Origin: an uncultured Actinomycetes bacterium
GTDB lineage: Bacteria > Actinomycetota > UBA4738 > HRBIN12
Direction: 5' to 3'
Length of the DNA: 64,000 nt
NCBI GenBank assembly: GCA_963771385.1
Contig: CAVYTE010000017.1
Span: 6,096 to 70,095, forward strand
This document shows, one piece after another, positions 1,009-45,162 of this stretch (position 1 is its first letter; each line of letters opens with the position of its first letter). The notes under the pieces are model-generated. The model saw only the letters and a list, made by a program, of their open reading frames with translations. It searched no databases and was not told the DNA's origin. Position numbers and translations under genes: made by a program.

Positions 1009-2629
1009 CTAGACCTCGGGCTCCTGGTCACCGATCGGACCGAGTGGCAGCGAGGGCTCGATGTCCGCTTCGGCCTCGTTCGCTTCGCGCTCGCGCCTGG
1101 CTGCTCGGCGATCGGAGGCGAGCTGCCGGAGCTCCCGGACCTCCATGTGGAAGGGCCGTCCCGTGAGCGCTCCGGCGAACCATGCGATGGAGGCCATCCC
1201 GCGACGAAGAACGCGGGATCACGTCCTGGGCGAACGGAAGCTGTCCCGCGACGGTCGCGACGGCGACGATCACCGCCGAGAAGAGGAACAGGCTGACGGT
1301 ATCTCTGCGGAACGGTGTGATCCCGGTGCGCCGGTACAGGATCAGGCTGTAGGCGCAGTTGACGAACGAGTAGGAGAGGGTGTTCGACCAGGCCGCGCCG
1401 ATCGGCCCGAAGCGCGGGATCAGGAGGAACCCGAGCGTGAGGTTCACGGCCATCCCGACCACGGCGAACCACGCCATCGGTCCCACGAGCCCGAGCGCGC
1501 CGAGCGTGACGCCGTTGAGACCCGTCATCAGGATGGCCCAGTAGCCGATCGCGAGCACCCACGCGACGCTCTCCATCGTCGCGTAGGGCGCCCCGAACAG
1601 GAACGGGAGCACCTGTCCCGGGACCGCCACCAGGACGATCAAGACCGGGATCCTGATCAGGTACCCCCACTTCGTGACGGACAGGTACAGGCCCTTGAGC
1701 TTGTCGGTGTGGTTCCGGGCGACGTAGCCGGTCGCGATCGGCACGAAGAGCACCGCGAACGCCGCCAGGCCCTTCGTCGCGAACTCGGTGAGCCGCATGA
1801 CCGGCGCGTAGAGCCCGGCCTCCGCGGGTGAGCGGAGGGTTCCGAGCAGGAGCACGTCGGCGCTCCGCATCGCGAAGAACAGCAGCTGCGACGCCAACAA
1901 CGGCAGCGAGAACGCCACGAGCGCCTTCGTGTCCGACATCGTGCTCTGCGTGATCGATCCGACCTGCCGGCGACGGCGGACCAGCGCCAGGCTCAGCAGG
2001 AGGTCGATGAGGGCGGACGCAACGAGGGCGCCGGCGAAGGCCGCGATCCCGTCCGCTCCGGCGAGCACGAGGCCGCCGATCAGCAACACGTCGACGAGCG
2101 GGGCCACGATCCCGAGGAACAGGATGGCCCGGAGATCGCGGTAGGCCCGGATCACGGCCCCGAAGGCCGCGCGGAGGCTGGTGGCGAGCACCAACGGTGC
2201 CAGGATCGTGAGCGCGAGCGAGACCCCGAACCCGTCCATGAGGCCGGAGGCCGCGAGGATGAGCACCAGGGCGGTCCCGGCCAGACCCGTCACCAGGCCG
2301 ACGACGATGCCCGACCGCACCATCCGCATGGCCTTCGCGCGATCGCCTTCTGCGCGAGCGAAGGAGATCATGCGGACCGCGCCGTTGCCGATGCCGGCGC
2401 TCGTGACGGCCTGCACCAGCGTGACGACCGTGAGCGCGACCGCCATCGCTCCGTACCGCGCGGCGCCCATGGTCCGGGTCAGGAGCACCGTCACCACGAG
2501 GCCGGAGACGGCGGCGATCACCGTGTTCGTCAGCGACGCCGCCGCTCCCTTGCCGACCTCGGCGAGATCGCGGCGTGCGTCGTGCGGCGAGCCGTGGCTC
2601 GAGCCGATCGCCTCCGCGCTTCGTGTCAT
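1009..2629 (-). CDS. Wzx-like polysaccharide flippase (MOP / polysaccharide biosynthesis protein family)
   Basis: ORF 1028..2671 is ~500 aa with many hydrophobic helices ('LTNTVIAAVSGLVVTVLLTR', 'LPLLASQLLFFAMRSADVLLLG'), matching typical Wzx size and topology. ATG 2629 overlaps the stop of the upstream hydrolase gene (ATGA). The last ~60 aa look more protein-like in ORF 1009..1197, suggesting a frame switch near ~1200. Confidence 0.7.
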
Positions 2630-3492
2630 CGGCGGCCTTCGCGATCTTCCTCCGAGTACCGCGAACACCACTCGACGATCCGCTCCGCAGCCAGCCGCTG
2701 CACCTCGAGCGTCTTGAACGTGTGCATCTCACCCGGCACGACGTCGAGCTCATACCGGTCGGTGGGCAGGGTGAGCCGCTCGAGCGCGAACCGAAGCTCC
2801 GCCCACGCGAAGTCGCGCTCCGCGTAGAGGAAGTACACGGGCGCTCGGTCGAGCGTTCGACGCACGTCCCGAGCGAAGCCCGGGCTCACGCGCGCCTCGA
2901 GCGGGAGACCGCCCTCTCGCCGCTGCATCGCCGCCCGCGCCGGCCCCTGCTCAGGACCCGGTCGCCCCAGCGCACGCGCGAGCTTGACCTGCAGCCGGAG
3001 TCGGCGCGTGCGGGTTCGCGCGTGGGTCGGCGCGGACACGACCGCCACGCCCTGGACCGCCGGGATCGCGCTGGCGGCACGCAGGACGACCCGTCCGCCG
3101 AAACAGGTCCCGACCAACGCGATCCTGCGCACCGTGGTCTCCTGCAGCAGGAGTTCACACGCGTCCTCTACGGCCCACCCAGGCGGGTCCTCCAGGTCGA
3201 AGACCTGCGGCCTGCCGGACGAGTTGCCGACACCCGGGTAGTCGAGCCGGAGCGCGTACATCCCTCTCGCGGCCAGTGCCTCGGCGACGCGGACCCACAT
3301 CCCGTTGCGATGTGTCCGGTCGCGAGCGCGACCGGCCATCAGCACGACGCCGAGGGCCGATCGAGGCGCGTGGCTCGGGACCGTCACGACCGCCCCGAGA
3401 CGCTCACCGCGACTCGGGATGTAGAGCGGAACCTCCGTCGCGGACGCCACACGTTCGGTTCGCGCGCCGGATCCGCCGATCGTCGTCGTCAC
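2626..3492 (-). CDS. alpha/beta-fold hydrolase/acyltransferase, resembles 'hydrolase 1, exosortase A system-associated' type (copy 1)
   Basis: This is the C-terminal 288 aa of ORF 2626..3951: 'GVVLMAGRARDRTHRNGMWVRVAEALAARGMYALRLDYPGVGNS', with nucleophile elbow 'IALVGTCFGG' (Cys). GTG 3492 overlaps the upstream stop (GTGA). The subfamily call is from remembered family architecture, not a search. Confidence 0.7.
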   Translation of the reverse strand: MTTTIGGSGARTERVASATEVPLYIPSRGERLGAVVTVPSHAPRSALGVVLMAGRARDRTHRNGMWVRVAEALAARGMYALRLDYPGVGNSSGRPQVFDLEDPPGWAVEDACELLLQETTVRRIALVGTCFGGRVVLRAASAIPAVQGVAVVSAPTHARTRTRRLRLQVKLARALGRPGPEQGPARAAMQRREGGLPLEARVSPGFARDVRRTLDRAPVYFLYAERDFAWAELRFALERLTLPTDRYELDVVPGEMHTFKTLEVQRLAAERIVEWCSRYSEEDREGRR

Positions 3493-4481
3493 CAGACCTC
3501 CCCGGCCCACTCGACGGTTCGGCTCGCGACGTCCTCGAACAGCGCGAGGTTCGTCGCCAGATGGCCGCTGACCGGCAGCCCCAGCCCGAACGTTCCCTGC
3601 CCCGGACCCTCCGCGTGCGTGACGCTCACCTGCACCCCGAACCCCTCGAGGCGTGAGGCGCTCGTCGCGATCTCCTTGTCCACCCGAGGGTTCACCGCGA
3701 GGAAGAGCGCTCGTTCGGGGGGTCGGGCGATCGCATCCAGCGGATGCGTGGCCTGAGCGGCCGCATAGAACTCGGGGGTGAGTGGGAACCCGAGCAGGTC
3801 GATCTGCTCGCCGGAGGACAGGGCGTCCTGCAGCATCTTCGTGTTCGGCCTGGCGGCATCCGAACCGTCGCTCGCGTCGACCACCTGTGCACGCGAGAAC
3901 GCGCGGAGCAGGCCGTCGAGGTAAGCGCCGGGATCCAGCGATGGTTGCCACAGCGCCACGCCCGGGGCGCCGAGCTCGCCCGCGACCATGAGCGCGATGG
4001 CCGCACCGAAACGTGCGCCAACGGGCACCACCCCCCGGACGCTGGTCCGCGCGACGAGCTCGTCCCGCGCCGCGAGCACGTCCCGGACGTGCGTCTGCGG
4101 CGAAGCCTCCGCCAGACTGCCGCCCGAATCACCGTACCCCCGCACCTGGACGTAGAGCGTGGGGAACCCCGCCGCCGCCGCCCGTCGAGCGAAGAGGAGC
4201 TCGAGTGGGAAGAGCTCGAACTGCTCGAACCCGAACGAGTGACAGATGACGAACCCCACCTCGCGACGGGCGCCGAGGGGCTCCGCGAGCGTGGTGAACA
4301 GCCGCCCCTCGTCGGTCTCGACGAACCGCTGCTCCTCGGACCACCCCGCGTCCGGTTCCTCCAGCACGGAGAAGGCACGAAGCCGGTCGAGCACATCGAC
4401 GCCGACCGGCCGAGCGTCACGCAGGGGTCGGGGACCATCGGCCGGGTCGACCGAGGTCTCCTTCGAGCCGTCGTTGATCAC
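3489..4481 (-). CDS. alpha/beta-fold protein, resembles 'hydrolase 2, exosortase A system-associated' type (copy 1)
   Basis: ORF 3489..4559 contains 'FVICHSFGFEQFELFPLELLFARRAAAAGFPTLYVQVRGYGDSGG', with elbow-like 'VPVGARFGAA' (Arg where Ser is expected). The likely start is GTG 4481 after GGAG; ATG 4559 is the ORF maximum. Confidence 0.65.
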   Translation of the reverse strand: MINDGSKETSVDPADGPRPLRDARPVGVDVLDRLRAFSVLEEPDAGWSEEQRFVETDEGRLFTTLAEPLGARREVGFVICHSFGFEQFELFPLELLFARRAAAAGFPTLYVQVRGYGDSGGSLAEASPQTHVRDVLAARDELVARTSVRGVVPVGARFGAAIALMVAGELGAPGVALWQPSLDPGAYLDGLLRAFSRAQVVDASDGSDAARPNTKMLQDALSSGEQIDLLGFPLTPEFYAAAQATHPLDAIARPPERALFLAVNPRVDKEIATSASRLEGFGVQVSVTHAEGPGQGTFGLGLPVSGHLATNLALFEDVASRTVEWAGEVW

Positions 4482-7131: not shown

Positions 7132-7408
7132 GGCGCCGAGCGACAGGTCCGCCGGCCAGGCTCGTACCCCGTACCGGAGACTCCGTTCCCTGATGCATCC
7201 ACCGTACACGGAATACGTACGCGGGGGCGTGCGTGTGCAGTGCGTGCCTCCCTACCATGCTTGCCTGCCCTGCGGATGGTCGCGCGCATCGAACAGCCAA
7301 GGCGAACGGAAGGAGTGGCGTGGGAGCGGACATCGACGAAGGTCGTCTCGACCCGGCCATCTCCGGGCGCGAGCGGGACGGCCGCGAGCGGTCCGCACGG
7401 GCAACGTG

Positions 7409-8366
7409 ATGCGTGCGGACCCCGATGGTCCGTTGCCGGCGTCCGGCGGCGCCTCGCGCCTGGGAACGAGCACCGCCGTGTCCGCGTCCTCCCGACGCGA
7501 CCCCGTGACGGGTATCCGGGAGGAGGCCGCGTTCTTCGGTCCGGGCCCGGGGAGGCGGTTCGGCGTCCTCCACGTCGCCGCCGGGTGAGCCGATCGCCGG
7601 GTTGGTGATCTGCGGTCCCTACCAGGCCGAGGTCCAGCGCCACTATCGACGGGAGGTCCTGCTCGCGCGTCGCCTCGCCGACATGGGGATCGCGGCGCAA
7701 CGGTTCCACTACGCGGGGTTCGGGCACAGCGACGGGGACCCGTCGGCCGCCACCTTCGAAACGATGCGCGAGGACGCGCTCGCCGCTGCCGATCATCTCG
7801 TCCGTGCCACCGGCGCAACGACGGTCGGGTTCCTCGGCACCCGGTGGGGCGGGCTCGTCGCCGCCTCGGCGGTCGCCGAGCGAGGCGGACACCTGGCCCT
7901 GTGGGAGCCGGTCGTGGATCCCGCGCGGTACTTCGACGAGATCTTCCGGTTCCTGATCATGTACCAGCTGAAGGAGGATCCGGCGGCCACGATGTCGGAG
8001 ACCAGCGTGCTCGACGGACTCCGACGCGAAGGCTCCGTCGACGTCCTCGGTCACCCCGTCGACCTGGCGCTGTACGAGAGCGCCGTGGGGATCGGTCTCG
8101 ACGGTTCCGTCGCCGATGCCGCGGACGCCGCACTGCTGATCCAGATCGGCGTGGGCAAGAGCCTGCGGCCCGAGTACGCGAGCCTGGTCGAGTCGTGGAC
8201 GCGACGCGGGCTCGACACGCAGACGCACGTGATCCGGGAACGGGAGGCGTGGTGGATCAGCGGGCACCGGTGGCCGATCCACGAGGTCCACGCTCCCACC
8301 ACGAAGCTGCTCGGACTCACCACGGGCTGGATCCGTGAGCGGCTCGGATCGGACGGCGCCCGGTGA
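7409..8366 (+). CDS. alpha/beta-fold protein, 'hydrolase 2'-like (copy 2); one frame break
   Basis: ORF 7602..8366 contains 'ICGPYQAEVQRHYRREVLLARRLADMGIAAQRFHYAGFGHSDG', with elbow 'FLGTRWGG' (Arg). The N-terminus continues in ORF 7193..7588 ('EEAAFFGPGPGRRFGVLHVAAG'), with the break at ~7585. The start (ATG 7409 or GTG 7406) is uncertain. Confidence 0.6.
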
Positions 8367-9323
8367 CCCTGATCGACGGCATGCGGGTGGCGACGAGCGA
8401 GCAGGAGACCCCGGTGTTCTTCCCCGCGGGCGCGGACACGCTGTTCGGCGTCCTCACCGAGCCGACCGGCGAGCCGAGAGGCACGGCCGCGATCCTGCTC
8501 GTCGGCGGCGGAACCATCTCGACGAACCGCAACCGCCTGTTCGTCCCCCTCGCTCGCCGGCTGAGCGCCGACGGGTTCCACGCGCTGCGATTGGACTACC
8601 ACGGGGTCGGGGAGAGCAGCGGGGTGCTCGCGGGTGCCCCTCGGGTGGGCGACCCGTTCCTCACCGATCTGCAGGGAGCGGTCGACTGGTTCCGCCCAGG
8701 AGGAACGGACCACCTCCTGCTGATCGGATCGTGCTTCGGTGCCAGGACCGCGCTCTCGGCTGCTCCCGAACTCACCGGCGTGCAGGCCGTCGTGCTGATC
8801 TCCCCGCCGCTCCGCGACCTCGCGATGGACGAGGAGGTGGGCACGCGTCTCGCCTACCGGGTGAAGGGCAGGCACGCGATCCGGCGTGCCCTGTCCCCCA
8901 AGGCATTGCGCGCCTGGCGCGACCCGGCGGCCCGCCGCACCTACCTGCGCTTCGTCAAGGTGAAGGCCTCGATGCTCTGGCGGCTGCCCGCGCGGGTGTT
9001 CCGCCGCGGCGCCGACGACTCGTGGGTCAGCCGGGCCCTGCTCGAGCCGATCCAGGCGCTGGCTCGGCGCAAGGTGCCGGTCCTGCTCGATCTTCGGCAC
9101 GAGGGACTACCACTACGACGACTTCCTCATCGCCCAGCCGGGCCGGCTCGGCAAGGTGCTGAAGGGTGCTCCGCTCACGGATCTGGTCGTCCTCGAGGGA
9201 CCGGTCCACGGGTTCCCCAAGATCGACGTGCAGGAACGTGTGCTGGACGTGATCTACGAGTGGATCGACCGCGTGCTGCCACGTGGTTCGGACGACGGAT
9301 CGAAGGGATCGAGCGAACGATGA
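8363..9323 (+). CDS. alpha/beta-fold hydrolase/acyltransferase, 'hydrolase 1'-like (copy 2); one frame break
   Basis: This is the first part of ORF 8363..10636: 'AAILLVGGGTISTNRNRLFVPLARRLSADGFHALRLDYHGVGES', with elbow 'LLLIGSCFGA' (Cys). After ~9089 the homologous frame reads 'IFGTRDYHYDDFLIAQPGRLGKVL..VLEGPVHGF..' and ends at TGA 9321..9323. GTG 8363 overlaps the upstream stop. Confidence 0.65.
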
Positions 9324-10636
9324 CGGAAGAGCGAATGACGGCGGCCGACGTGATCATCGTCGGCGGGGGTCCCGCGGGGGCGACGCTCGGCGGCCTGTTC
9401 GCACAGAGCGGGCATCGGGCGCTGATCCTCGAACGCGACATCCATCCCCGGGACCACGTGGGCGAGTCGATGGTGCCCGCGAACAACTTCGTCTTCCACC
9501 GGCTCGGGTTCCTCCCGAAGATGGAGGACGCCGGGTTCGTGCACAAGGAAGGCGTCGGTTGGACCGCGCCCCGGTCGAAACTGTGGGCCCTCGTGTCGAT
9601 CCGGACCTCGGACTTCCCGGCCCCGAACGCCGTCCAGAAGTACAGCTACAACGTCGAGCGTGACGTCTTCGACACGCTCCTGCTCCGCCACGTGCACGAG
9701 CTCGGGGCCAAGGTGCTCCAGGGCGTGAACGTGAAGCGGGTGTTGTTCGAGGGCGATCGGGCGGTCGGGGTTCGGGTCGAGATGACCGAGGGGTGGGAGC
9801 AGGACCTGTTCGCGAAGGTCGTGATCGACGCCTCCGGCCGCAGGTGCCTGCTGGCCAAGCAGCTGAAGGTCAAGCAGAAGGACGCCGACTTCAACCAGTA
9901 CTCGATCTGGTCGTGGTTCAAGGACGTGGAGGACCCGCCACCCGGCTACGAAGGGTTCGTGATCTTCCATTTCCTCGGGCTCGAGCGCGCGTGGGGGTGG
10001 CAGATCCCGCTGCGCAACGGCGTGAACTCGATCGGGGTCGTGACGGACAAGGCCGACTTCCAGAAGTCGGGTCGGACACCGGAGGAGTTCTTCGACAGCC
10101 TCATCAACCGGAACCGCACGTTCGCGCACGCGATGCGGAACGCCACGCGGACGCGACCCTGGTGGATCGAGGCCGACTACTCGTACCAGATGGACGAGAT
10201 CACCGGCCCCGGCTGGCTGATGATCGGCGACGCCTTCCGCTTCGTCGATCCGATCTTCTCCTCCGGCGTCGACGTGGCGCTCAACTCCGCGTCCTTCGCG
10301 CACGAGGCGATCCTCCATGCCTGGGAGACCGGGGACGAGAAGGCCGCCTTCGAGGCGTACGCGGAGCGTGTGACCAGCGGCGTCGACGTCTGGTACGAGA
10401 CGACGGACCTCTTCTACAAGCTGCAGCAGCTCTTCGGCCGGTTCGCGTTGGATCCGCGGTATCGAGAGGACATCGCGCGATCGCTGCAGGGCAACCCGTA
10501 CCAACCGCAGAACCAGGAGCGCTCGCAGCGGATCCTCGAACTCATGCGCGAGGCCTACGACCAGGTCATGTCGGACCCGGACAACCTGCTGCGGCCGGGC
10601 GCGCTCGACCCCGCCCGCGCCGGATCGACGGGCTGA
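9320..10636 (+). CDS. FAD-dependent enzyme of the flavin-dependent halogenase type
   Basis: Starts at aa 320 of ORF 8363..10636. It contains '[15 protein letters not shown]' (GxGxxG), '[10 protein letters not shown]' (WxWxIP signature) and '[17 protein letters not shown]'. ATG 9320 overlaps the upstream stop (ATGA). Confidence 0.7.
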
Positions 10637-10640
10637 GGAG

Positions 10641-11498
10641 GTGGCTGCGATGCGAGCCACGGCGGGACCGGTGGGCGCGGCGAGCCCCTCGCCGGGCTCC
10701 CTCCGCGCCCGGACCTCGGATCGGACCGTCGTCGTGGCCGGCGTCTCGATCGGTGCCCGCGCGCCCGTCCGCGTGATCGCCGGCCCCTGCTCGGTGGAGG
10801 ACCTGGAGCAGTTCCGGACGACGGCGCAGGCCGTTCGATCGGCCGGGGCGGTGCTCCTGCGGGGCGGCGCCTTCAAGCCGCGCACGTCGCCCTACAGCTT
10901 CCAGGGTCTCGGACGCGCCGGGCTCGAGATCATGCGGCAGGTCGGCGACGAGCTCGGCATGGGGGTCGTGACGGAGGCGATGTCGGCCGACGACGTCCTG
11001 CACGTCGCCGAGCTGGCGGACATGGTCCAGATCGGCGCCAGGAACATGGACAACCGGGCGCTGCTCGAGGCCGCGGCCGAGACCGGCCGGCCCGTGCTGC
11101 TGAAGCGCGGCGCGACGGCGACGGTCGACGAGCTGCTCGTCGCCGCCGATGTGCTGCGCGACCACGGGACCGAGCAGGTGATCCTGTGCGAGCGTGGGAG
11201 CCGAACGTTCGAGCCGTCCACGCGGAACAGCCTGGACATCGGGGCGGTGCCCGAGCTCAAGCTCCGGACCGACCTCCCCGTGATCGTGGACCCGTCGCAC
11301 GGCACCGGCCTGCGCGAGCTCGTCACGCCGGTGTCGCTCGCCGGCATCGCGGCCGGCGCCGACGGGCTCCTCGTCGAGGTGCACCCGGACCCGGACGCCG
11401 CGCTGTCCGACGGACCGCAGTCGGTGCGCGCCGCGGAGTTCGGCGCCTACATGGACCGCGTGCGAGCCCTCTCGCTCGCCGTCGGACGGGCGATCTGA
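10641..11498 (+). CDS. 3-deoxy-7-phosphoheptulonate (DAHP) synthase, type I-beta
   Basis: All catalytic motifs are present: 'IAGPCSVED', '[17 protein letters not shown]', '[10 protein letters not shown]' and '[16 protein letters not shown]'. ATG 10650 (8 nt after GGAGG) may be the true start. Confidence 0.85.
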
Positions 11499-13135
11499 TG
11501 CAGACGGCGTCCCCGCTCGTCGTCGTGCTGGACCCGGAAGCGAACGACGGCGACCTCGCAGACGCGATCGCCGCCGCGAACGACCTCCAGCCCGGCGTGC
11601 AGGTCACCCGGGGGAACGGGTGGGCCGCGATCGCGGTCGGCGACGGTGTGCGGCCGGTCGAGGTGGGAGCCTTGCAGGATCTCCGGGCGGTCGAGCGGAT
11701 CGTCGAGGTGGACGTCCCGTACCGGCTCGCCTGGCGGGAGGTCTTCGGAGAGGACCTGTCCGTCGAGGTCGGCGACGCCGCGGCCGGCGATCGCTCCGGC
11801 GCCGTGACCTTCGGGGGCCGCGCGCCGATCCGCGTCATCGTGAGCTCCCGATGGGTCGGGGCCGGCGAGGCCCGGCTCGAGCTCCTGGCGCCGATGCTGG
11901 CGGAGGCGGGATGCACCGCGTTCCACGCCGGGCGCCTCGCGACGCCCGGCGAACGAGCCGCCGGTGAGGCCCTCGACATCGACGGGCTCCGGCGGATCCG
12001 GGGGATCGTTCGGAGCCAGGGCCTCGCCCTGTCCGTCGAGGTGGCCGACGTCAGCCAGATCGCGCTCGCGGAACCCGAGGCCGACATCCTGCAGGTCGGC
12101 AGCGCGAACATGCAGGACTTCAGCCTCCTGCGCGAGCTGGGAAGGACCCAGCGGCCCGTCATCATGAAGCGTGGGGCGGGAGCGACGGTCGAGGAGTTCC
12201 TCCTCGCGGCCGAGTACATCCTGTCGCACGGCAACGGCAACGTGATCCTGTGCGAGTCGGGGATCCGCACGTTCGACTCCCTCCGCAGGCCGCGGTTCGA
12301 GATCAACGCCGTTCCCCTGATCAAGGGCTCGACGCATCTCCCGCTGCTGGCGGATCCCTCGCAGGCGGCCCCGCATGCCGGCGTCGTGCCGGCCGTCGCC
12401 CGAGCGGCGATCGCCGCGGGCGCCGACGGTCTCGTCCTCGAGGTGGGAACCGAGTCGGTGCACGACCCCGAGGGGACCACGATCGACATCGACACCCTGC
12501 GACGGCTCACGGCCGAGCTCCGGCCGATCGCGCGCGCGGTGGGACGGACGATCGGGCCGATCGGTGTCGGGGACGGGGAGCCGCTCCCGGCCGACCCCGC
12601 GGACATCCTGCGCCACACCGATCGGACCCTCGCGCAGACGATCGAATCGATCATCGGGCTCCCGCCGGACCTGGACGTCGTCGCGCAATGGCGGCTCGAC
12701 GGGGACGCGTCGGCCTGGCTCTCGCCGCCGCTCTCACGCGGTTCGCAGATCCTCGGCCGGTGCACCGGATACCGCATGGGTTCGGTTCGCCTGTCGCGCA
12801 ACCTGTCGTACGTGGACCTGGGTCGGATCGACCCCACCCTCGCGGCCTTGCTGGAGACGCGGCAGCTGAACCTGGGGCAGCTGTTCATCGACCCGAGGAT
12901 CGAGAAGGAGGACTTCGAGTTCGGGACGCACGAGGACGCCGCGGAGATCGACGCCGAGTTCCGCCGATGGTTCGCCGACGAGGAGGAAGACCTGCACCCC
13001 TACGTGTGGCGGCGGTACCGCGCGGCGATCGGCGGGATGACGAGCTTCGTCGTCGTCGAGGCGCTCCCGACGCGGGTCTGGGACGGGCTCCTCGGCACCG
13101 ACGCCCTCGCGATCCGGCAAGGATGGCCCGGATGA
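11498..13135 (+). CDS. Fusion protein: degenerate DAHP-synthase-like domain + Rv2949c-type chorismate pyruvate-lyase domain
   Basis: Starts at aa 105 of ORF 11186..13135. The N-terminal and middle parts are paralogous to the preceding DAHPS ('ILQVGSANMQDFSLLRELG..PVIMKRG..ILCESGIRTF') but lack the Cys, KPRT and DPSH motifs. The C-terminal ~170 aa ('RTLAQTIESIIG..LSRNLSYVDLGRIDP..LGQLF..VWRRYRAAIGGMTSFVVVEALP') match the chorismate-lyase/DUF98 pattern. The ATG overlaps the upstream stop (TGATG). Confidence 0.65.
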   Translation: MQTASPLVVVLDPEANDGDLADAIAAANDLQPGVQVTRGNGWAAIAVGDGVRPVEVGALQDLRAVERIVEVDVPYRLAWREVFGEDLSVEVGDAAAGDRSGAVTFGGRAPIRVIVSSRWVGAGEARLELLAPMLAEAGCTAFHAGRLATPGERAAGEALDIDGLRRIRGIVRSQGLALSVEVADVSQIALAEPEADILQVGSANMQDFSLLRELGRTQRPVIMKRGAGATVEEFLLAAEYILSHGNGNVILCESGIRTFDSLRRPRFEINAVPLIKGSTHLPLLADPSQAAPHAGVVPAVARAAIAAGADGLVLEVGTESVHDPEGTTIDIDTLRRLTAELRPIARAVGRTIGPIGVGDGEPLPADPADILRHTDRTLAQTIESIIGLPPDLDVVAQWRLDGDASAWLSPPLSRGSQILGRCTGYRMGSVRLSRNLSYVDLGRIDPTLAALLETRQLNLGQLFIDPRIEKEDFEFGTHEDAAEIDAEFRRWFADEEEDLHPYVWRRYRAAIGGMTSFVVVEALPTRVWDGLLGTDALAIRQGWPG

Positions 13136-14691
13136 GCACGACGCCGGCGAACGACGGATCCGGCGCCTACAACGCGACGGTCGACCTCCTCGAGCGGAAC
13201 GTTCGCGAAGGCCGCGGCGGCAACACGTACCTGCGAACCGAGGAGCGCACCTGGAGCTACGAGGAGGTGGCGGCTGCGGCGGACGCCGCCGGATCCGGGC
13301 TCCTCGAGCTCGGACTCCGGCCGGGCGATCGCGTGATCCTGGCGCTCCGCGACCGACCCGAGTTCGTGAGCGCGTTCTGGGGAGCGATGAAGGCGGGCCT
13401 GGTCCCGGTCCCGATCGCCCAGGGCCTGTCGGCCTCGGACGTCGACTTCATGCTCTCGGACAGCGAGGCACGGGCGATCGTGTGCGACGAGTCGTCCGCG
13501 GCGGCCGTCCTCCCGGCCGCCCGCGAAGCCGCGGCGGTGGCGTGCCTGTTCGTGGGTGGGTCTCCGCCGGAGGCGGCGCGCGCGTGGGACGAGGTGTGCG
13601 GCGGGTCCGCCGCGCTCCAACCCGCGTCGACGGGGCCGGACGACATCGCGCTGTGGCTCTACACCTCGGGAACGACCGGGCTCCCGAAGGCGGTCATGCA
13701 CCGCCACCGCCACCTGCGAGACGCGCCGAACGCCCTCGCCCGGCAGGTGATGGAGCTCACCGAGGACGACACGGTGCTGTCGGTCTCGAAGATGTTCTTC
13801 GCGTACGGACTCGGCAACAGCGTGTACCTGCCGGCGTCGGTCGGAGCCTCGGTGGTCGTGAACGGCGCGCCGAGCATCCCGGTGCGCATCCAGGCCCTGG
13901 TGAGCGAGTCGAACCCGACCGTGCTGTTCGGCGTGCCGGCGTTCTTCGCCGGGTTCGCACGCCTCCCCGAGTCCGAGCTTCCGGCATCGGTTCGGATCGT
14001 GCTCTCGGCCGGCGAGGCGCTGTCGGGCGAGCTGTTCGAGATGTTCCAGGAGCGCTTCGGGCTCCCGCTGATCGACGGCCTCGGGTCGACCGAGGCGCTG
14101 CACCACGTCACCTCGAACCGACCCGACGACGTCGTCGCCGGAAGTGCGGGGCGCGCCCTCGACGGGTACGAGGTGCAGGCGCTCGATCGGTACGGTCAAC
14201 CGACGAAGGCGGGCAGCTCGGGCGAGCTGTGGGTCCGAGGGCCCACGACGTTCGCCGGCTACTGGCGCCGGCCGGAGCTGACCGAGCGGGCGTACTCGGG
14301 CGAGTGGATGCGGACCGGCGACGTGGTCCGCATCGTCGACGGTCGCGTGTACCACGAGGGGCGGATCGACGACCTGATGAAGCTCGGCGGCGTCTGGGTG
14401 GCTCCGGCGGAGATCGAGGACGTGCTGCGGAGCCACGCGGACGTGGTCGACGCCGCCGTGGTCGCGGTCGACGACGAGGTCGGGGTCCCCGTCCTCAAGG
14501 CCTTCGTGCTCTCCGAGCGGGCCGACGCGGCCCTGCCGCGGGATCTGGCCAAGTTCTGCAAGGGCAGGCTCGCGGCGTTCAAGCTGCCCCGGTCCTTCGA
14601 GGTCGTCCCGGACCTTCCCAGGACGCCGACGGGGAAACTGCGGCGGTTCGTGCTTCGCGGCGGGGCCGGCGACCGCTCCGCGGTGTCTTGA
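13132..14691 (+). CDS. Aryl-acid AMP-ligase (benzoate/4-hydroxybenzoate-CoA ligase family)
   Basis: 519 aa with 'LYTSGTTGLPKAVMHRH', 'SKMFFAYGLGNS', 'GEWMRTGD' and 'PRTPTGKLRR'. The ATG overlaps the upstream stop (ATGA). Confidence 0.8.
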   Translation: MSTTPANDGSGAYNATVDLLERNVREGRGGNTYLRTEERTWSYEEVAAAADAAGSGLLELGLRPGDRVILALRDRPEFVSAFWGAMKAGLVPVPIAQGLSASDVDFMLSDSEARAIVCDESSAAAVLPAAREAAAVACLFVGGSPPEAARAWDEVCGGSAALQPASTGPDDIALWLYTSGTTGLPKAVMHRHRHLRDAPNALARQVMELTEDDTVLSVSKMFFAYGLGNSVYLPASVGASVVVNGAPSIPVRIQALVSESNPTVLFGVPAFFAGFARLPESELPASVRIVLSAGEALSGELFEMFQERFGLPLIDGLGSTEALHHVTSNRPDDVVAGSAGRALDGYEVQALDRYGQPTKAGSSGELWVRGPTTFAGYWRRPELTERAYSGEWMRTGDVVRIVDGRVYHEGRIDDLMKLGGVWVAPAEIEDVLRSHADVVDAAVVAVDDEVGVPVLKAFVLSERADAALPRDLAKFCKGRLAAFKLPRSFEVVPDLPRTPTGKLRRFVLRGGAGDRSAVS

Positions 14692-14778
14692 CGCGGCGCT
14701 CGAGCGGACGGACCCAGGGACATCACGAGGCACGCGAACCTGACGCGCGCGCTCGACGTCTCCGAAGGAACGCGCGGA

Positions 14779-14804
14779 CGCCGCTGAACGCGAGCTCAGC
14801 GGCG
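14779..14804. terminator. GC-rich hairpin between convergent ligase and ACP genes (possible bidirectional terminator)
   Basis: 9-bp perfect stem CGCCGCTGA / TCAGCGGCG with an 8-nt loop. No U-tract. Confidence 0.35.
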
Positions 14805-14821
14805 CCCGCTCGTACTGCTCG

Positions 14822-15106
14822 TCAGGAGCCCTGCGCCGCGGCTCGGTCCGGCGCTCCCTCGTCGATCTTCGCCTCGAGGAACGCCGCGAGCGCGCTGACC
14901 GACTCGAAGTTGTTCTTCACGACCTGATCATTGCGGATGATCACCTTGTAGCGATCCTCCAGGAACCCGATCAGCGACATGAGCCCGAAGGAATCGAGCA
15001 GACCCGACAGTAGCGGGATGTCCTCCGGCAGGTCGACCTCCTCGTTCTCGTCGAGCACTTCCTCGACGATGAAGGTCCTGATCTCCTTCTCGATCTCCGA
15101 TCGCAT
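14822..15106 (-). CDS. Acyl carrier protein (ACP-1)
   Basis: 94 aa at the tail of ORF 14822..16291, starting 'MRSEIEKEIRTFIVEEVL' and carrying the phosphopantetheine motif 'LLDSFGLMSL'. GGAGG lies upstream of ATG 15106. Confidence 0.85.
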   Translation of the reverse strand: MRSEIEKEIRTFIVEEVLDENEEVDLPEDIPLLSGLLDSFGLMSLIGFLEDRYKVIIRNDQVVKNNFESVSALAAFLEAKIDEGAPDRAAAQGS

Positions 15107-15189
15107 CGCCACACCTCCACCTTCCCTATCGTTCGATCGTCTCCGTTGCCTGAGCGTCTCGTGTGCCCCGACCGCCGCGCCACGCGCTC

Positions 15190-17036: not shown

Positions 17037-17039
17037 CGA

Positions 17040-40829: not shown

Positions 40830-42034
40830 CCCTCCGTCACCCCTCGCTCGTCGATCCGAACCTCCGTGTTGCCGTGTGCCCGTCCGCCCGCGGACAGCAC
40901 CCGTTCGTAGAGCTCGAACATCCCGCGCGCGGCGCGCTCGGCCGTGTACCGGTCGAGGAAGCGCTCCCTGCCGCGCTCGGCCCGCCGCGACGACTCATCG
41001 CTATCGGCGAGGGTCTCGCCGATGGCCGCGGCGAGTTCCCCGGCGTCTCCGACCCGCGCGAGGAGCCCGATGTCGTGGCCGTCGAAGACCTCCCGCACCG
41101 CGGGAAGGTCGCTCGCGACGGTGGGCGCCTCGAGCGCCATCGCCTCGAGCAACACCCCGGGCAGCCCCTCGCGCCGGGAGGGCAGGACGAAGACGTCGGC
41201 CGCGCACAGGAGGTCCGGCACGTCGCCCCGCGTTCCCAGGAAGACGACCGAGCCGGCCAGATCACCACGGGTCGCGCGCTCCCGGAGGAGCGCCGTCGCG
41301 TTCCCATCCGCGCCGGCAACGAGCAGTCGTGCGGCGACGCGTTCGGACCGCACCGAACCGAACGCGTCGAGGAGGACGTCCAGACCCTTCGCGTGGTCCT
41401 GCCGAGCGATCGCCACGATCACCGGCACATCGTTCCCCACCTCGAGCCGCGATCGGGCCGCGCGTCGCCGGTCCTGCGACCGGCGACCGAGCACCTGCGG
41501 GTCCCTGCCCCTGGGGACCACCGTGAAGCGGCCCCGTGGGACGCGCAGCCGCCGGGCCATCGTATCGGCGATGTGCTGCGCGGGAACGTGGAACCGGACG
41601 ACCGATCGCGCCGTCGCCGCGTCGGCGGCCTGCGCCGCACGCACCTTCCACCGGCGGAGCCCGGGCTCGCTCAGGTGCGCGGAGCCGTACCCCTCGCTCA
41701 CGATGCTCGACACGACCGGCACCCGAGCCAGCCGGCCCGCGATCCGGCCGAGGAGATCGGCCTCGTACAGCGTGGTGTGAAGGAGGTCCGGCCGCCGTTC
41801 GCCGAGCACCCGACGGACGCGGCGGAGATCGCCGGTGCGGCCGCCCGGGCCGTCCAGCGGCAACAGCGTGGCGCCGCTCTCGCGGAGCAGGTCGTGCACA
41901 CCCGGACGCTCGCGCAGATACGCGACGTCGAGGCGAACGCCCGCGGCGACGAGGTCCGGCGCCATGGAGGCGAGCGAACGCTCCGCGCCTCCCATCGCCA
42001 GGCTGTCGATCAGGTACAGGACGTGCACGCTCAA
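40826..42034 (-). CDS. GT-B (GT4-type) glycosyltransferase
   Basis: 402 aa at the tail of ORF 40826..43738: 'VHVLYLIDSLAMGGAERSL', 'ARQDHAKGLDVLL' and 'FVLPSRREGLPGVLLEAMALEAPTVASDLPAVREV'. TTG 42034 overlaps the upstream stop (TTGA). Confidence 0.8.
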   Translation of the reverse strand: MSVHVLYLIDSLAMGGAERSLASMAPDLVAAGVRLDVAYLRERPGVHDLLRESGATLLPLDGPGGRTGDLRRVRRVLGERRPDLLHTTLYEADLLGRIAGRLARVPVVSSIVSEGYGSAHLSEPGLRRWKVRAAQAADAATARSVVRFHVPAQHIADTMARRLRVPRGRFTVVPRGRDPQVLGRRSQDRRRAARSRLEVGNDVPVIVAIARQDHAKGLDVLLDAFGSVRSERVAARLLVAGADGNATALLRERATRGDLAGSVVFLGTRGDVPDLLCAADVFVLPSRREGLPGVLLEAMALEAPTVASDLPAVREVFDGHDIGLLARVGDAGELAAAIGETLADSDESSRRAERGRERFLDRYTAERAARGMFELYERVLSAGGRAHGNTEVRIDERGVTEG

Positions 42035-43734: not shown

Positions 43735-43756
43735 GCAATCCCGCCGGGCGCCATCG

Positions 43757-44920: not shown

Positions 44921-45162
44921 TGCTGCGCGACCCGGGAGTTCACGAGGTTGTCGATGTCCGCGATCGTACGGAAGTGCTCGACGGTCACCTCTTCGTCCTG
45001 CACCTCGATGTCGAACTCCTCCTCGAGGAACGCGACGAGCTGCATGAGTCCGAGCGAATCGAGGACCCCGTCGAGCAACGGCGTCTCGTTCGTGAGGGCG
45101 ACGGAGTCGTCCTCGAAGAGGATCTCGGTCTGGATGAAGCCGCGGATGCGATCGGCGTTCAT
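44917..45162 (-). CDS. Acyl/peptidyl carrier protein (ACP-2), paralogue of ACP-1
   Basis: 81 aa at the tail of ORF 44917..45510, starting 'MNADRIRGFIQTEILF' and containing 'LLDGVLDSLGLMQLVAFLEEEF'. AAGGAG lies upstream of ATG 45162. Confidence 0.85.
   Translation of the reverse strand: MNADRIRGFIQTEILFEDDSVALTNETPLLDGVLDSLGLMQLVAFLEEEFDIEVQDEEVTVEHFRTIADIDNLVNSRVAQQ

What the first reader, a model, noticed from the sequence alone, without database searches (positions are those of the whole stretch)
7409..15106. Operon linking 'hydrolase 2/hydrolase 1' pair, halogenase-like flavoenzyme, chorismate-to-hydroxybenzoate module, aryl-acid ligase and ACP
Seen: six plus-strand genes (7409..14691) are chained by overlapping stops and starts, and an ACP is encoded convergently at 14822..15106. 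Known: the set 'hydrolase 1 + hydrolase 2 + AMP-forming acyl-CoA ligase + ACP' defines a function-unknown subcluster of exosortase A (PEP-CTERM) EPS loci in NCBIfam. In M. tuberculosis, chorismate pyruvate-lyase Rv2949c feeds 4-hydroxybenzoate to the FadD22 aryl-AMP ligase/ArCP for phenolic glycolipids. Inference: the usual decarboxylase partner appears to be replaced here by a self-contained shikimate-branch supply (DAHPS + chorismate lyase) and a halogenase. That predicts an aromatic, possibly halogenated, acyl group that is loaded on ACP and transferred by the alpha/beta-fold pair onto the polysaccharide or another acceptor. This would give a first chemical hint for the orphan hydr1/hydr2/ligase/ACP module.
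Basis: partly seen in the sequence, partly recalled or inferred. Interest (0 to 1): 0.7.

Follow-up and report, generated by a model that had tools for sequence, protein, structure and literature searches.

The report
Aromatic-acyl decoration module in polysaccharide locus
An uncultured soil actinobacterium carries, inside a large cell-surface polysaccharide locus, a conserved gene set that most likely makes a hydroxybenzoic acid from chorismate, loads it on a carrier protein, perhaps chlorinates it, and hands it to an unusual pair of hydrolase-fold proteins; this predicts a substrate for an orphan enzyme pair but no step has been tested.

Summary
The genes are at the stated coordinates and the functional labels are largely right. 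Two corrections apply to the raw sequence. Both hydrolase genes are broken by single-base insertions (near 7571 and at 9089), probably assembly errors. Only four of the five junctions overlap.

- **Hydrolases:** best hits are NCBIfam hydr2_PEP and hydr1_PEP, but far below the cutoffs. They are distant relatives, not members, and no exosortase was found.
- **Ligase:** a true benzoate-CoA-ligase-family member, not ligase_PEP_1.
- **"DAHPS + chorismate lyase":** one real DAHPS, plus a fusion of a regulatory domain, a catalytically degenerate DAHPS barrel and a divergent Rv2949c/DUF98-type chorismate pyruvate-lyase domain.
- **Halogenase:** PltA/Mpy16/ChlB4 type, which acts on carrier-protein-bound substrates.

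New findings:
- The hydr1 type carries Cys at the nucleophile position and the hydr2 type carries Arg. This holds across phyla and in fused proteobacterial versions.
- DAHPS–fusion–ligase is a conserved triad in uncultured Actinomycetota, repeatedly joined by ACP plus the hydrolase pair inside polysaccharide loci.
- The window also holds a second hydrolase pair and a proline-to-(dehydro)prolyl/pyrrolyl carrier-protein module, which offers a rival target for the halogenase.

This is a new variant of known logic and all of the chemistry is inferred.

The parts
7409..8366 (+). hydr2-like alpha/beta-fold protein with Arg at the nucleophile elbow (GTRWG). It is broken by a one-base insertion near 7571.
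   Evidence: Best NCBIfam hit is TIGR03101 at 78.9 bits, below the 202.75 cutoff. Insertion relative to L084/L003. Arg motif conserved.
8363..9323 (+). hydr1-like alpha/beta-fold protein with a Cys-Asp-His set (GSCFG, IFGTRD, VHGF). It is broken by a one-base insertion at 9089.
   Evidence: Best NCBIfam hit is TIGR03100 at 62.9 bits, below the 168.45 cutoff; weak LuxD acyltransferase hits. The Cys aligns to the catalytic Ser of solved hydrolases. Insertion shown.
9320..10636 (+). Flavin-dependent halogenase of the PltA/Mpy16/ChlB4 type (carrier-protein-tethered substrates).
   Evidence: PDB phmmer: 5DBJ 1.1e-88, 5BUK 1.9e-88, 7FCO 1.5e-87. [12 protein letters not shown] Lys, WGWQIP and FVDPIFSSG are conserved. 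Pfam PF04820 scores 70.8 bits.
10650..11498 (+). Type I-beta DAHP synthase: catalytic barrel only, with no regulatory domain.
   Evidence: TIGR01361 337.3 bits, above 267.75; NF006421 365.6, above 335. All metal- and PEP-binding motifs are conserved against 1VS1/3PG8.
11498..12580 (+). N-terminal two thirds of the fusion protein: a ferredoxin-like regulatory domain plus a DAHPS-like barrel lacking the catalytic motifs.
   Evidence: Aligns end to end with T. maritima DAHPS. However GPC becomes [15 protein letters not shown] is lost, DPSH becomes DPSQ and CERG becomes CESG. TIGR01361 scores 177, below 267.75.
12581..13135 (+). C-terminal Rv2949c/DUF98-type chorismate pyruvate-lyase-like domain of the fusion protein.
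   Evidence: Profile hit to 2NWI at 1.3e-4. AF2 pLDDT 88.9. Foldseek: 2NWI TM 0.62/0.70, UbiC 0.59/0.65. The profile reaches PF01947 members. Invariant R421 and E521.
13132..14691 (+). Aryl-acid AMP-forming ligase of the benzoate-CoA ligase family.
   Evidence: TIGR02262 441.1 bits, above 375.25; ligase_PEP_1 189.5, below 592; FadD22 275, below 1228. PDB 2V7B 6e-97, BadA, AuaEII. A conserved LHH replaces LHI at the pocket.
14822..15106 (-). Stand-alone acyl carrier protein with an LDSFG serine motif.
   Evidence: PF00550 19.9 bits against a gathering score of 20.8; NCBIfam ACP families. Orthologues accompany the module in L003, L084, L087, L088, L089 and L098.
2626..3492 (-). Second hydr1-like paralogue (GTCFG Cys motif), intact.
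   Evidence: tblastn to L084/L003 hyX at 69-70% identity. Alignment A3. GTGA overlap with the upstream gene.
3489..4478 (-). Second hydr2-like paralogue (GARFG Arg motif), intact.
   Evidence: tblastn to L084/L003 unkX at 62-65% identity. Alignment A3.
42031..45162 (-). Possibly linked second carrier module. In order of transcription: PCP (44917-45162), prolyl-carrier-protein dehydrogenase (43757-44890), PltF-like adenylating enzyme (42031-~43760).
   Evidence: PigA 437 bits and RedW 420 bits. TIGR01733 402.7 bits, above 317.4. PDB 4IRN prolyl-ACP dehydrogenase 7.5e-113. PltF 6O6E 6.8e-108. Orthologues lie 4 kb from the module in L089.

Best explanation
This is a self-contained module that most likely makes an aromatic acyl group and attaches it to a glycan, inside a cell-surface polysaccharide locus.

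1. The intact DAHP synthase raises shikimate-pathway flux. It probably works in a hetero-oligomer with the fusion protein, whose own barrel is catalytically dead but keeps the regulatory domain.
2. The C-terminal Rv2949c-like domain of the fusion protein converts chorismate to 4-hydroxybenzoate plus pyruvate.
3. The benzoate-CoA-ligase-type enzyme adenylates that acid and loads it as a thioester, most likely on the adjacent ACP.
4. In this sub-lineage the PltA-type halogenase chlorinates the carrier-bound ring ortho to the hydroxyl.
5. The hydr1-type subunit takes the aroyl group onto its Cys nucleophile. With its Arg-bearing hydr2-type partner, it passes the group to a sugar hydroxyl or amine of a nucleotide-sugar or lipid-linked repeat unit.

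Shown here: family or fold assignments, motif conservation, gene linkage and locus context.
Inferred: the identity of the acid, ACP rather than CoA loading, the halogenase substrate, and the acyl-transfer role and acceptor of the hydrolase pair.
For: - **Enzyme identities:**
- **Lyase domain:**
  - The profile hits DUF98 structure 2NWI.
  - A confident AF2 model is closest to 2NWI and also matches UbiC.
  - An HMM search of 1.84 billion representatives finds only 68 clusters. Most are stand-alone proteins of 170-195 aa, and the weak end includes bona fide PF01947 members.
  - R421 and E521 are invariant across all of them.
  - A stand-alone homologue (55% identity) sits directly upstream of a carrier protein, an AMP ligase, an NRPS module and an HpaB phenol hydroxylase.
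  - P0131 joins the lyase-like domain to an orthologous ligase (65% identity) in one ORF.
- **Linkage:**
  - DAHPS-fusion-ligase occurs in the same order in every one of about 15 loci with enough flank.
  - ACP+hydr2+hydr1 joins it in 7 loci, in four different arrangements.
- **Context:** flippase, GT2, DegT, GNATs, deacetylases, UDP-sugar dehydrogenase, Polysacc_synt_2, tyrosine autokinase and priming transferase lie in the window and in relatives.
- **Hydrolase pair:**
  - The Cys (hydr1 type) and Arg (hydr2 type) signatures are conserved in 16 actinobacterial sequences.
  - They are also conserved in fused two-domain proteins of Burkholderia (an EPS cluster) and Azospirillum (next to ACP, ACAD and an amino acid-ACP ligase).
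  - The Cys aligns to the catalytic Ser of solved hydrolases.
- **Precedent:** in clorobiocin and coumermycin biosynthesis, CloN7/CouN7 moves a carrier-bound pyrrole-2-carboxyl group onto a sugar 3'-OH (PMC11218499, PMC8748450).
Against: - No enzyme was assayed.
- The lyase-like domain gets no direct Pfam hit and no significant hhalign match to E. coli UbiC. The same fold serves as a ligand sensor in GntR/HutC regulators.
- The ligase family normally makes CoA thioesters.
- Four loci (L001, L085, L095, L096) show the triad without the ACP or an identified hydrolase pair within the available flank.
- The halogenase is as similar to pyrrolyl-carrier halogenases as to the aryl-carrier enzyme ChlB4. 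A proline/pyrrole carrier module lies in the same window.
- hydr2 and hydr1 are frameshifted in this sequence.
- In a limited search I found no report of a hydroxybenzoylated bacterial polysaccharide.
Confidence: 0.5

Rival explanations
1. Same module, but the halogenase acts on pyrrolyl-S-PCP rather than on hydroxybenzoyl-S-ACP. The pyrrolyl-S-PCP would be made by the PltF-like, PCP and prolyl-carrier-dehydrogenase genes at 42-45 kb. The locus would then install two different aromatic acyl groups, only the pyrrole being halogenated.
For: - The top solved relatives, PltA and Mpy16, are pyrrolyl-S-carrier halogenases.
- The window encodes all three enzymes needed to make (dehydro)prolyl- or pyrrolyl-S-PCP.
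- The same module lies 4 kb from the aryl module in L089.
- The window has two hydrolase pairs and two carrier proteins.
Against: - The halogenase is translationally coupled to hydr1. It sits between hydr1 and DAHPS in all four loci that have it: the window, L003, L084 and L098.
- L089 has the proline module but no halogenase within 10 kb.
- ChlB4, an aryl-S-ACP halogenase, scores almost the same as PltA.
- The dehydrogenase is closest to AnaB, which stops at dehydroprolyl.
Confidence: 0.35
2. The genes make a free small molecule, a (halo)phenolic or pyrrole natural product as in ambigol or bmp pathways. The alpha/beta-fold pair would act as thioesterases releasing the acid from the carrier, and the polysaccharide neighbours would be incidental.
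For: - DAHPS, chorismate lyase, adenylating enzyme, carrier and halogenase is the known logic for 3-chloro-4-hydroxybenzoate in ambigol biosynthesis. This is from my own knowledge; the reference is Kresna 2021, doi 10.1039/D0OB02372H, listed in PMC10300848.
- A stand-alone lyase homologue lies in an NRPS cluster.
- The nearest solved relatives of hydr1 are esterases.
Against: - The module sits in polysaccharide loci in all seven relatives with usable flanks.
- There are no P450s, condensation domains or other tailoring genes beside it.
- The hydr1/hydr2 superfamily is EPS-linked in Proteobacteria too.
- A conserved Cys nucleophile with an Arg-bearing partner is atypical for simple type II thioesterases.
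Confidence: 0.15
3. The C-terminal UbiC/UTRA-fold domain is a ligand sensor that regulates the DAHPS complex rather than an enzyme. The ligase would then activate an aromatic acid obtained elsewhere, by scavenging or from another pathway (for example pABA in L087).
For: - The fold is shared with GntR/HutC effector-binding domains.
- The domain is fused to a regulatory pseudo-enzyme.
- PabAB and PabC lie next to the triad in L087, whose ligase has LHF instead of LHH.
- DAHPS-chorismate mutase fusions use a catalytic-fold domain for regulation (my own knowledge; 5J6F appears).
Against: - The closest fold and sequence relatives are the enzymatic DUF98/Rv2949c family, not UTRA domains.
- The Arg and Glu at the UbiC R76/E155-equivalent strands are invariant.
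- Most family members are stand-alone proteins of enzyme size, one of them beside a carrier protein and a ligase.
Confidence: 0.12
4. In this particular genome the two hydrolase genes are real pseudogenes, and the transfer step is lost or taken over by the intact second pair at 2626-4478.
For: Both insertions lie outside long homopolymers. An intact paralogous pair is present.
Against: - At least nine frame breaks occur in the first 22 kb, spread over unrelated genes.
- Gene fragmentation is the same in sister long-read MAG contigs.
- The orthologues are intact in L003, L084, L088 and L098.
Confidence: 0.2

Closest known systems
NCBIfam exosortase A (XrtA/PEP-CTERM) associated set: hydr1_PEP TIGR03100, hydr2_PEP TIGR03101, ligase_PEP_1 TIGR03098, plus ACP
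   Same: A paired hydr2-type and hydr1-type alpha/beta-fold protein lies next to an AMP-forming ligase and a small ACP inside an exopolysaccharide locus. These models are the best NCBIfam hits for both proteins and for all 16 relatives tested.
   Different: All scores are far below the curated cutoffs. The ligase belongs to the benzoate-CoA ligase family instead. No exosortase, PEP-CTERM or PLP decarboxylase was seen. The host is Actinomycetota. The acyl supply is a shikimate branch.
Ambigol 3-chloro-4-hydroxybenzoate module (Ab5-Ab10, Fischerella); Kresna et al. 2021, doi 10.1039/D0OB02372H (details from my own knowledge)
   Same: A dedicated DAHPS, a chorismate lyase, an adenylating enzyme, a carrier protein and a flavin halogenase acting on the carrier-bound 4-hydroxybenzoyl group.
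   Different: Here the lyase is fused to a dead DAHPS barrel and the adenylating enzyme is of the benzoate-CoA ligase type. There are no P450s or condensation/TE domains. The downstream partners are a Cys/Arg hydrolase-fold pair in a glycan locus.
M. tuberculosis Rv2949c chorismate pyruvate-lyase + FadD22 (p-hydroxybenzoate for phenolic glycolipids)
   Same: An Rv2949c/DUF98-type lyase family feeds an aryl-AMP ligase and carrier (PF01947 link; FadD22 model hit at 275 bits).
   Different: The domain is too divergent to hit PF01947 directly. The ligase is far below the FadD22 cutoff of 1228 and lacks a fused carrier domain. There is no Pks15/1-type PKS.
Clorobiocin/coumermycin CloN3-N5, CloN1, CloN2, CloN7/CouN7
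   Same: A carrier-protein-bound aromatic acyl group (pyrrole-2-carboxyl from proline) is transferred by a dedicated acyltransferase onto a sugar hydroxyl (PMC11218499, PMC8748450). The window also encodes CloN4/N5/N3-like genes at 42-45 kb.
   Different: The acceptor there is a small-molecule deoxysugar. Homology of hydr1/hydr2 to CloN2/CloN7 was not tested here. hydr1 uses Cys and has an Arg-bearing partner.
PltA / Mpy16 / ChlB4 flavin-dependent halogenases
   Same: About 300 bits to each, with all signature motifs and the catalytic Lys conserved. These enzymes accept only carrier-tethered substrates (my own knowledge).
   Different: The substrate here is unknown: hydroxybenzoyl-S-ACP or pyrrolyl-S-PCP. 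The genomic setting is a polysaccharide locus, not a PKS/NRPS cluster.
Regulated type I-beta DAHP synthases (T. maritima FL-domain enzyme; DAHPS-chorismate mutase fusions such as 5J6F)
   Same: The fusion protein aligns over the whole T. maritima enzyme, including its ferredoxin-like regulatory domain. A chorismate-using domain is attached to a DAHPS scaffold.
   Different: The barrel has lost its metal and PEP-binding motifs. The catalytic DAHPS is a separate, domain-less protein. The attached domain is a lyase type, not a mutase.

Membership tests
hydr2_PEP (TIGR03101) | Whole-protein score at or above the curated cutoff of 202.75 bits | tested here: not met
   78.9 bits, although it is the best hit. 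The best E-value among 16 relatives is 5.6e-30.
hydr1_PEP (TIGR03100) | Whole-protein score at or above the curated cutoff of 168.45 bits | tested here: not met
   62.9 bits, although it is the best hit. The fused proteobacterial relatives reach 109 bits, also below the cutoff.
ligase_PEP_1 (TIGR03098) | Score at or above 592.35 bits | tested here: not met
   189.5 bits for the 13132-14691 ligase. The second adenylating enzyme at 42031-43863 scores 336.9, also below the cutoff.
Exosortase A / PEP-CTERM system | Exosortase (EpsH/XrtA) and PEP-CTERM proteins in the neighbourhood | tested here: not met
   Pfam or NCBIfam scans of about 40 ORFs across the 64 kb gave no exosortase hit. There were only sub-threshold hits to the XrtA-associated tyrosine kinase model. 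The rest of the genome was not available.
Benzoate-CoA ligase family (TIGR02262) | Score at or above 375.25 bits, with the aryl-pocket motifs | tested here: met
   441.1 bits. FFAYGLGN and the GSTE.LH motifs align with 2V7B and BadA.
Type I-beta DAHP synthase (TIGR01361) | Score at or above 267.75 bits, plus the metal ligands (Cys, His, Glu, Asp) and the KPRTS loop | tested here: met
   Gene 10650-11498 scores 337.3 bits with all motifs present.
Type I-beta DAHP synthase (TIGR01361), applied to the fusion protein | The same score and catalytic motifs | tested here: not met
   177 bits. The Cys and His ligands and the KPRTS loop are replaced in all 38 family members.
Chorismate pyruvate-lyase, Rv2949c-like (Pfam PF01947 / DUF98) | Direct Pfam hit above the gathering score of 22 bits | tested here: not met
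   None of the 21 domain sequences gave a hit, even at E up to 10.
Chorismate pyruvate-lyase, Rv2949c-like (Pfam PF01947 / DUF98) | Same fold and detectable homology to members | tested here: met
   Profile against 2NWI at 1.3e-4. Foldseek TM 0.62/0.70 to 2NWI and 0.59/0.65 to UbiC. The family profile finds P0176, P0180 and P0182, which pass PF01947 at 32-42 bits.
Chorismate pyruvate-lyase, Rv2949c-like (Pfam PF01947 / DUF98) | Catalytic conversion of chorismate to 4-hydroxybenzoate and pyruvate; active-site Arg and Glu | tested here: inconclusive
   R421 and E521 are invariant across fused, stand-alone and PF01947 sequences. They lie on the strands topologically equivalent to UbiC R76 and E155, which is an inference from the secondary structure. 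Activity cannot be tested with these tools.
Flavin-dependent halogenase (PF04820; PltA clade) | GxGxxG, a conserved Lys, WxWxIP and Fx.Px.Sx.G; Pfam score above 21 bits | tested here: met
   70.8 bits. All motifs align with PltA, Mpy16 and ChlB4.
Acyl carrier protein (PF00550) | Gathering score of 20.8 bits and a phosphopantetheine-attachment Ser | tested here: inconclusive
   19.9 bits, just below the cutoff. The LDSFG serine is present. NCBIfam ACP models hit at 1.9e-10 but below their cutoffs. The L088 orthologue carries a weak precomputed PP-binding hit.
Catalytic alpha/beta hydrolase (Ser-Asp-His) | A GxSxG nucleophile elbow | tested here: not met
   hydr1 type has GxCxG and hydr2 type has GxRxG in all sequences examined.

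The most novel reading that the evidence does not exclude
The Cys-bearing hydr1 subunit and the Arg-bearing hydr2 subunit form a dedicated carrier-protein-to-glycan aroyl-transferase. On this reading these soil Actinomycetota esterify a cell-surface polysaccharide with (chloro)hydroxybenzoyl groups, and possibly pyrrole-2-carbonyl groups. That chemistry is so far known only from small-molecule antibiotics. By extension, the orphan exosortase-A-associated hydr1/hydr2/ligase/ACP sets, the Burkholderia Bep-cluster protein and the Azospirillum amino acid-ACP-ligase clusters would all be acyl-carrier-dependent polysaccharide acylation systems.
Probability: 0.3. Interest if true: 0.8.

Novelty: new variant of a known kind. 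Interest (0 to 1): 0.6.

Why it matters
- **Orphan enzyme pair:** the hydr1/hydr2 pair recurs in exopolysaccharide loci of several phyla, and I found no reported function for it. This module pairs it with an acyl supply whose chemistry can be predicted: a chorismate-derived hydroxybenzoate on an ACP. That gives defined substrates for in vitro tests. The conserved Cys and Arg give obvious mutants.
- **Unusual chemistry:** if the transfer goes to the glycan, it would reveal aromatic, possibly halogenated, acylation of a bacterial surface polysaccharide in abundant uncultured soil Actinomycetota.
- **New DAHPS arrangement:** a catalytic DAHPS working with a dead DAHPS paralogue, which carries the regulatory domain and the pathway's end enzyme, would be a new way of coupling entry to and exit from the shikimate pathway.

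Tried and rejected
- **Exact-sequence look-up** of the window ligase found nothing.
- **The genome-contig scan** with the full-length fusion alignment chose patterns inside the DAHPS barrel. It was flooded by ordinary DAHPS genes, and only one true relative was recovered.
- **Pfam scans** of the lyase-like domain (21 sequences, E up to 10) gave nothing relevant.
- **hhalign** of the domain alignment against authentic E. coli UbiC, fetched from NC_000913.3, was not significant. The link to chorismate lyases therefore rests on the fold and on transitive homology.
- **tblastn of hydr1 and hydr2 against plasmids** returned no exosortase-A-annotated hydrolases. The Cys/Arg motifs could not be checked in true TIGR03100/03101 members.
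- **The promoter and terminator scan** of 6900-15400 found nothing, which is uninformative at 70% GC.
- **Literature searches** found nothing on the exosortase-associated hydrolase/ligase/ACP set or on hydroxybenzoylated polysaccharides. The ambigol paper itself is not held.
- **Rejected: one fused hydrolase-halogenase protein.** The 757-aa ORF 8363-10636 is a frameshift artefact.
- **Rejected: two active DAHPS paralogues.** The second barrel lacks its catalytic residues.
- **P0075** (890 aa, dead barrel joined to the ligase without the lyase domain) and **P0131** (lyase domain joined to the ligase) may be true fusions. They may equally be indels at the ATGA junction, so I give them little weight.

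Full report
**1. Observation**

The window is about 70% G+C, so mechanical ORFs are unreliable. I used third-position GC profiles and translations instead.

Four of the five junctions overlap:
- GTGA at 8363-8366
- ATGA at 9320-9323
- TGATG at 11496-11500
- ATGA at 13132-13135

The halogenase/DAHPS junction does not overlap. It has a 13-nt spacer containing GAGGAGG before ATG 10650.

Two genes are not intact as given.
- The frame opened at ATG 7409 stops at 7586-7588, and the protein continues in the next frame.
- hydr1 changes frame near 9089.
- Alignment with the orthologous DNA of two relatives shows exactly one extra base at each site: CACG[T]CGCC and CTC[G]ATC.
- The orthologues are intact in relatives.
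- tblastn with the relatives' proteins shows similar frame breaks in unrelated neighbours: GT2 at 1-925, DUF3179 at 15199-17036 (three breaks), the PKD protein and GSDH.
- Sister contigs from long-read MAG assemblies are fragmented in the same way.

I therefore regard the breaks as probable assembly indels, and real pseudogenes as a minority possibility.

**2. What each gene is**

- **hydr2-like and hydr1-like (7409-8366, 8363-9323).**
  - With the frames repaired, the best NCBIfam hits are hydr2_PEP (78.9 bits, cutoff 202.75) and hydr1_PEP (62.9 bits, cutoff 168.45).
- **Halogenase (9320-10636).**
  - It matches PltA, Mpy16 and ChlB4 at about 1e-88.
  - The flavin-binding GGGPAG, the Lys in FVHKEG, WGWQIP and FVDPIFSSG are all conserved.
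  - From my own knowledge, these enzymes act on carrier-tethered pyrrolyl or aryl thioesters.
- **DAHPS (10650-11498).**
  - It passes the type I-beta DAHPS models (337 bits against 268; 366 against 335).
  - It keeps every catalytic motif.
  - It consists of the barrel only.
- **Ligase (13132-14691).**
  - It passes the benzoate-CoA ligase family model (441 bits against 375).
  - It is far below ligase_PEP_1 (189 against 592) and FadD22 (275 against 1228).
  - Its closest structures are benzoate-CoA ligases and the anthranilate-CoA ligase AuaEII.
  - Where those enzymes have LHI at the aryl pocket, this family has LHH in 11 of 12 loci. This may reflect a polar para substituent, but that is only an inference.
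- **ACP (14822-15106).**
  - It has the LDSFG serine.
  - It sits just under the Pfam threshold.

**3. The fusion protein (11498-13135, 545 aa)**

It aligns over the full length of T. maritima DAHPS, including the N-terminal ferredoxin-like regulatory domain. The barrel has nevertheless lost its catalytic apparatus:
- the metal-binding Cys (GPC becomes SSRW)
- the metal-binding His (DPSH becomes DPSQ)
- the [11 protein letters not shown] loop
- the Arg of CERG

These losses hold in all 38 aligned family members. The barrel is therefore a conserved pseudo-enzyme.

The last ~185 residues have no Pfam hit, but several lines connect them to chorismate pyruvate-lyases.
- A profile of the domain hits the DUF98 structure 2NWI at E = 1.3e-4.
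- An AlphaFold model (pLDDT 88.9) is closest to 2NWI (TM 0.62/0.70). UTRA effector domains and E. coli chorismate lyase (TM 0.59/0.65) follow.
- An exhaustive HMM search of 1.84 billion representatives finds only 68 clusters, mostly stand-alone proteins of 170-195 aa. The weakest of these (P0176, P0180, P0182) are bona fide members of Pfam PF01947, "Chorismate pyruvate-lyase Rv2949c-like".
- Across fused, stand-alone and PF01947 sequences only four columns are invariant. They include R421 and E521 in fusion-protein numbering. By the predicted strand order, these lie where UbiC has R76 and E155. That placement is my inference.

Activity is untested.

**4. Conservation and linkage**

About 90 full-length homologues of the fusion exist. 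All come from uncultured Actinomycetota or metagenomes.

In every locus with enough flank (about 15), the order DAHPS-fusion-ligase is kept. ACP + hydr2 + hydr1 accompany the triad in seven loci, in four arrangements:

| Locus | Arrangement of ACP and hydrolase pair |
|---|---|
| Window, L003, L084, L098 | Pair upstream of the triad, ACP downstream and convergent; halogenase also present |
| L088 | ACP and pair directly upstream of the triad |
| L089 | ACP and pair downstream of the ligase |
| L087 | Divergent from the triad |

Gene order has been shuffled while the neighbourhood is retained, which argues for functional coupling. Four loci (L001, L085, L095, L096) show only the triad within the flank available.

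The halogenase (at least 78% identical) occurs only in the window, L003, L084 and L098. It always lies between hydr1 and DAHPS. It is therefore an accessory of one sub-lineage.

Two further pieces of context support an aryl-acid-supplying enzyme.
- A stand-alone homologue (55% identity) sits directly upstream of a carrier protein, an AMP ligase, an NRPS A-MT-PCP module and an HpaB-type phenol hydroxylase.
- P0131 joins the lyase-like domain to an orthologous ligase (65% identity). This could be an indel artefact at the ATGA junction.

**5. Setting**

The window and the relatives are polysaccharide loci. Genes found include:
- a MOP-type flippase and GT2
- a DegT aminotransferase and GNATs
- polysaccharide deacetylases
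- a UDP-sugar dehydrogenase and Polysacc_synt_2
- a tyrosine autokinase and a priming phosphotransferase
- Wzy_C and Bac_transf

. No exosortase was found.

**6. The hydrolase pair**

Alignment of 16 actinobacterial sequences shows two different nucleophile elbows.
- The hydr1 type always has Gx**C**xG plus the Asp and, in all but one sequence (L087), the His.
- The hydr2 type always has Gx**R**xG and lacks that Asp/His pair.

The Cys aligns with the catalytic Ser of solved hydrolases.

The window has a second, intact pair of the same two types at 2626-4478 on the minus strand.

In Proteobacteria the two types occur fused in one protein, with the same signatures.
- A 602-aa protein lies in a Burkholderia arboris EPS cluster with Wzc and a glycosyltransferase (GLRLG / GICSG). 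This is probably the equivalent of Bcam1334 in the Bep cluster, which is annotated TIGR03100 in PMC3584217; I did not test that equivalence.
- A 591-aa Azospirillum protein lies next to an ACP, an acyl-CoA dehydrogenase homologue and an amino acid-[ACP] ligase (GFRLG / GLCAG).

.

The fusion argues that the two act as one unit. The repeated company of an ACP-loading enzyme argues that the unit handles acyl-S-ACP. A Cys nucleophile suits transthioesterification followed by transfer. PHA synthases are the classic Cys alpha/beta-fold acyltransferases (my own knowledge).

A documented precedent for moving an aromatic acyl group from a carrier protein to a sugar is CloN7/CouN7, which installs pyrrole-2-carboxyl on the noviose 3'-OH (PMC11218499; PMC8748450).

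**7.

The window encodes a second carrier module at 42031-45162 on the minus strand.
- A PCP lies at 44917-45162.
- The dehydrogenase has PigA (437 bits) and RedW (420 bits) as its best NCBIfam hits. Its best structure is the prolyl-ACP dehydrogenase AnaB (4IRN, 7.5e-113).
- The adenylating enzyme has PltF as its best stand-alone structural match (6O6E, 6.8e-108).

.

Together with the PltA-like halogenase, this is the full set needed for a halogenated pyrrolyl-S-PCP. Orthologues of this module lie 4 kb from the aryl module in L089, which has no halogenase within 10 kb.

Gene adjacency and translational coupling favour the aryl module as the halogenase's partner. Sequence similarity cannot decide, because ChlB4, an aryl-ACP halogenase, scores the same as PltA. 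I put the aryl target only slightly ahead.

**8. Mechanism proposed, and confidence**

| Step | Basis | My estimate |
|---|---|---|
| DAHPS raises flux | Family membership | High |
| Dead-barrel subunit pairs with the DAHPS and tethers the lyase | Inference | — |
| Chorismate to 4-hydroxybenzoate | Fold, homology, context | about 0.6 |
| Aryl-acid adenylation | Family membership | about 0.8 |
| Loading on the ACP | Context | about 0.6 |
| Halogenation on the carrier | Homology | about 0.55 for this substrate |
| Cys-mediated transfer to a glycan acceptor | Context and precedent | about 0.4 |

Overall confidence is about 0.5.

**9. Comparison with what is known, and novelty**

The supply logic (DAHPS, chorismate lyase, adenylation, carrier, halogenase) matches the ambigol building-block pathway. 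It also partly matches Rv2949c/FadD22. The pairing with hydr1/hydr2-like proteins and an ACP in a polysaccharide locus resembles the exosortase A set, but the membership tests fail.

New elements:
- the dead-DAHPS/lyase fusion
- the Cys/Arg signature of the hydrolase pair and its conservation across phyla
- the repeated embedding of the whole set in actinobacterial glycan loci

I class this as a new variant of known kinds. It is interesting mainly because it turns an orphan enzyme pair into a testable hypothesis.

Noticed in passing
window 42031-45162 (-): A PCP, a PigA/RedW/AnaB-like prolyl-carrier-protein dehydrogenase and a PltF-like adenylating enzyme. This is a proline-to-(dehydro)prolyl/pyrrolyl-S-carrier module inside a polysaccharide locus. 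Orthologues lie in L089 at 17297-20015.
   Followed up: partly
window 2626-4478 (-): A second, intact hydr2-like/hydr1-like pair (GARFG / GTCFG) joined by a GTGA overlap, divergent from the sulfatase-like gene. The same second pair is present in L003 and L084.
   Followed up: partly
window 1-925, 15199-17036, 17025-20144, 19397-21191: Multiple frame breaks relative to orthologues in the GT2, DUF3179, PKD-repeat and GSDH-like genes. At least nine breaks fall in the first 22 kb, which suggests an indel-prone assembly.
   Followed up: partly
L091 11224-13032 (-) and L090 8182-9957 (+): Proteobacterial proteins of about 600 aa that fuse a hydr2-type (Arg) domain and a hydr1-type (Cys) domain. One lies in a Burkholderia EPS cluster. 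The other lies next to ACP, an ACAD, an amino acid-[ACP] ligase, DUF1839 and GH2 in Azospirillum.
   Followed up: partly
L087 13195-16096 (-): A fused PabAB-like ADC synthase and a PabC-like aminotransferase class IV lie directly beside the triad. The ligase of this locus is the only one with LHF instead of LHH at the pocket motif, so it may use a p-aminobenzoate variant.
   Followed up: no
L099 2493-17419: A stand-alone lyase-like gene lies in an NRPS-type cluster with a carrier protein, an AMP ligase, methyltransferases, an A-MT-PCP module and an HpaB hydroxylase. Nearby are a MACPF/hemopexin protein and a P-type ATPase.
   Followed up: partly
P0075 (890 aa) and P0131 (709 aa): Single ORFs that join the dead DAHPS barrel directly to the ligase (lyase domain missing), or the lyase-like domain to the ligase. 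They may be true fusions or indels at the ATGA junction.
   Followed up: partly
window 4660-7131 (+): An 823-aa sulfatase-family protein lies immediately upstream of the module, with weak hits to arylsulfatase, choline-sulfatase and PehA. It is conserved at that position in L003. APS kinase or PAPS reductase-family and CysN-like (GTP_EFTU) genes are near the triad in L085 and L087, hinting at sulfation of the same glycan.
   Followed up: no
window 50815-52639 (-): Two adjacent paralogues with sub-threshold hits to HprK-related kinase A (TIGR04352). A response regulator and a histidine kinase lie at 54042-57456, and GroEL at 58979-60700. The same groES/EL neighbourhood is seen in L085.
   Followed up: no
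window 9083-9095: The inserted G in hydr1 creates a GATC site (CTC[G]ATC). This may be a systematic basecalling error at a methylation motif rather than a mutation.
   Followed up: no
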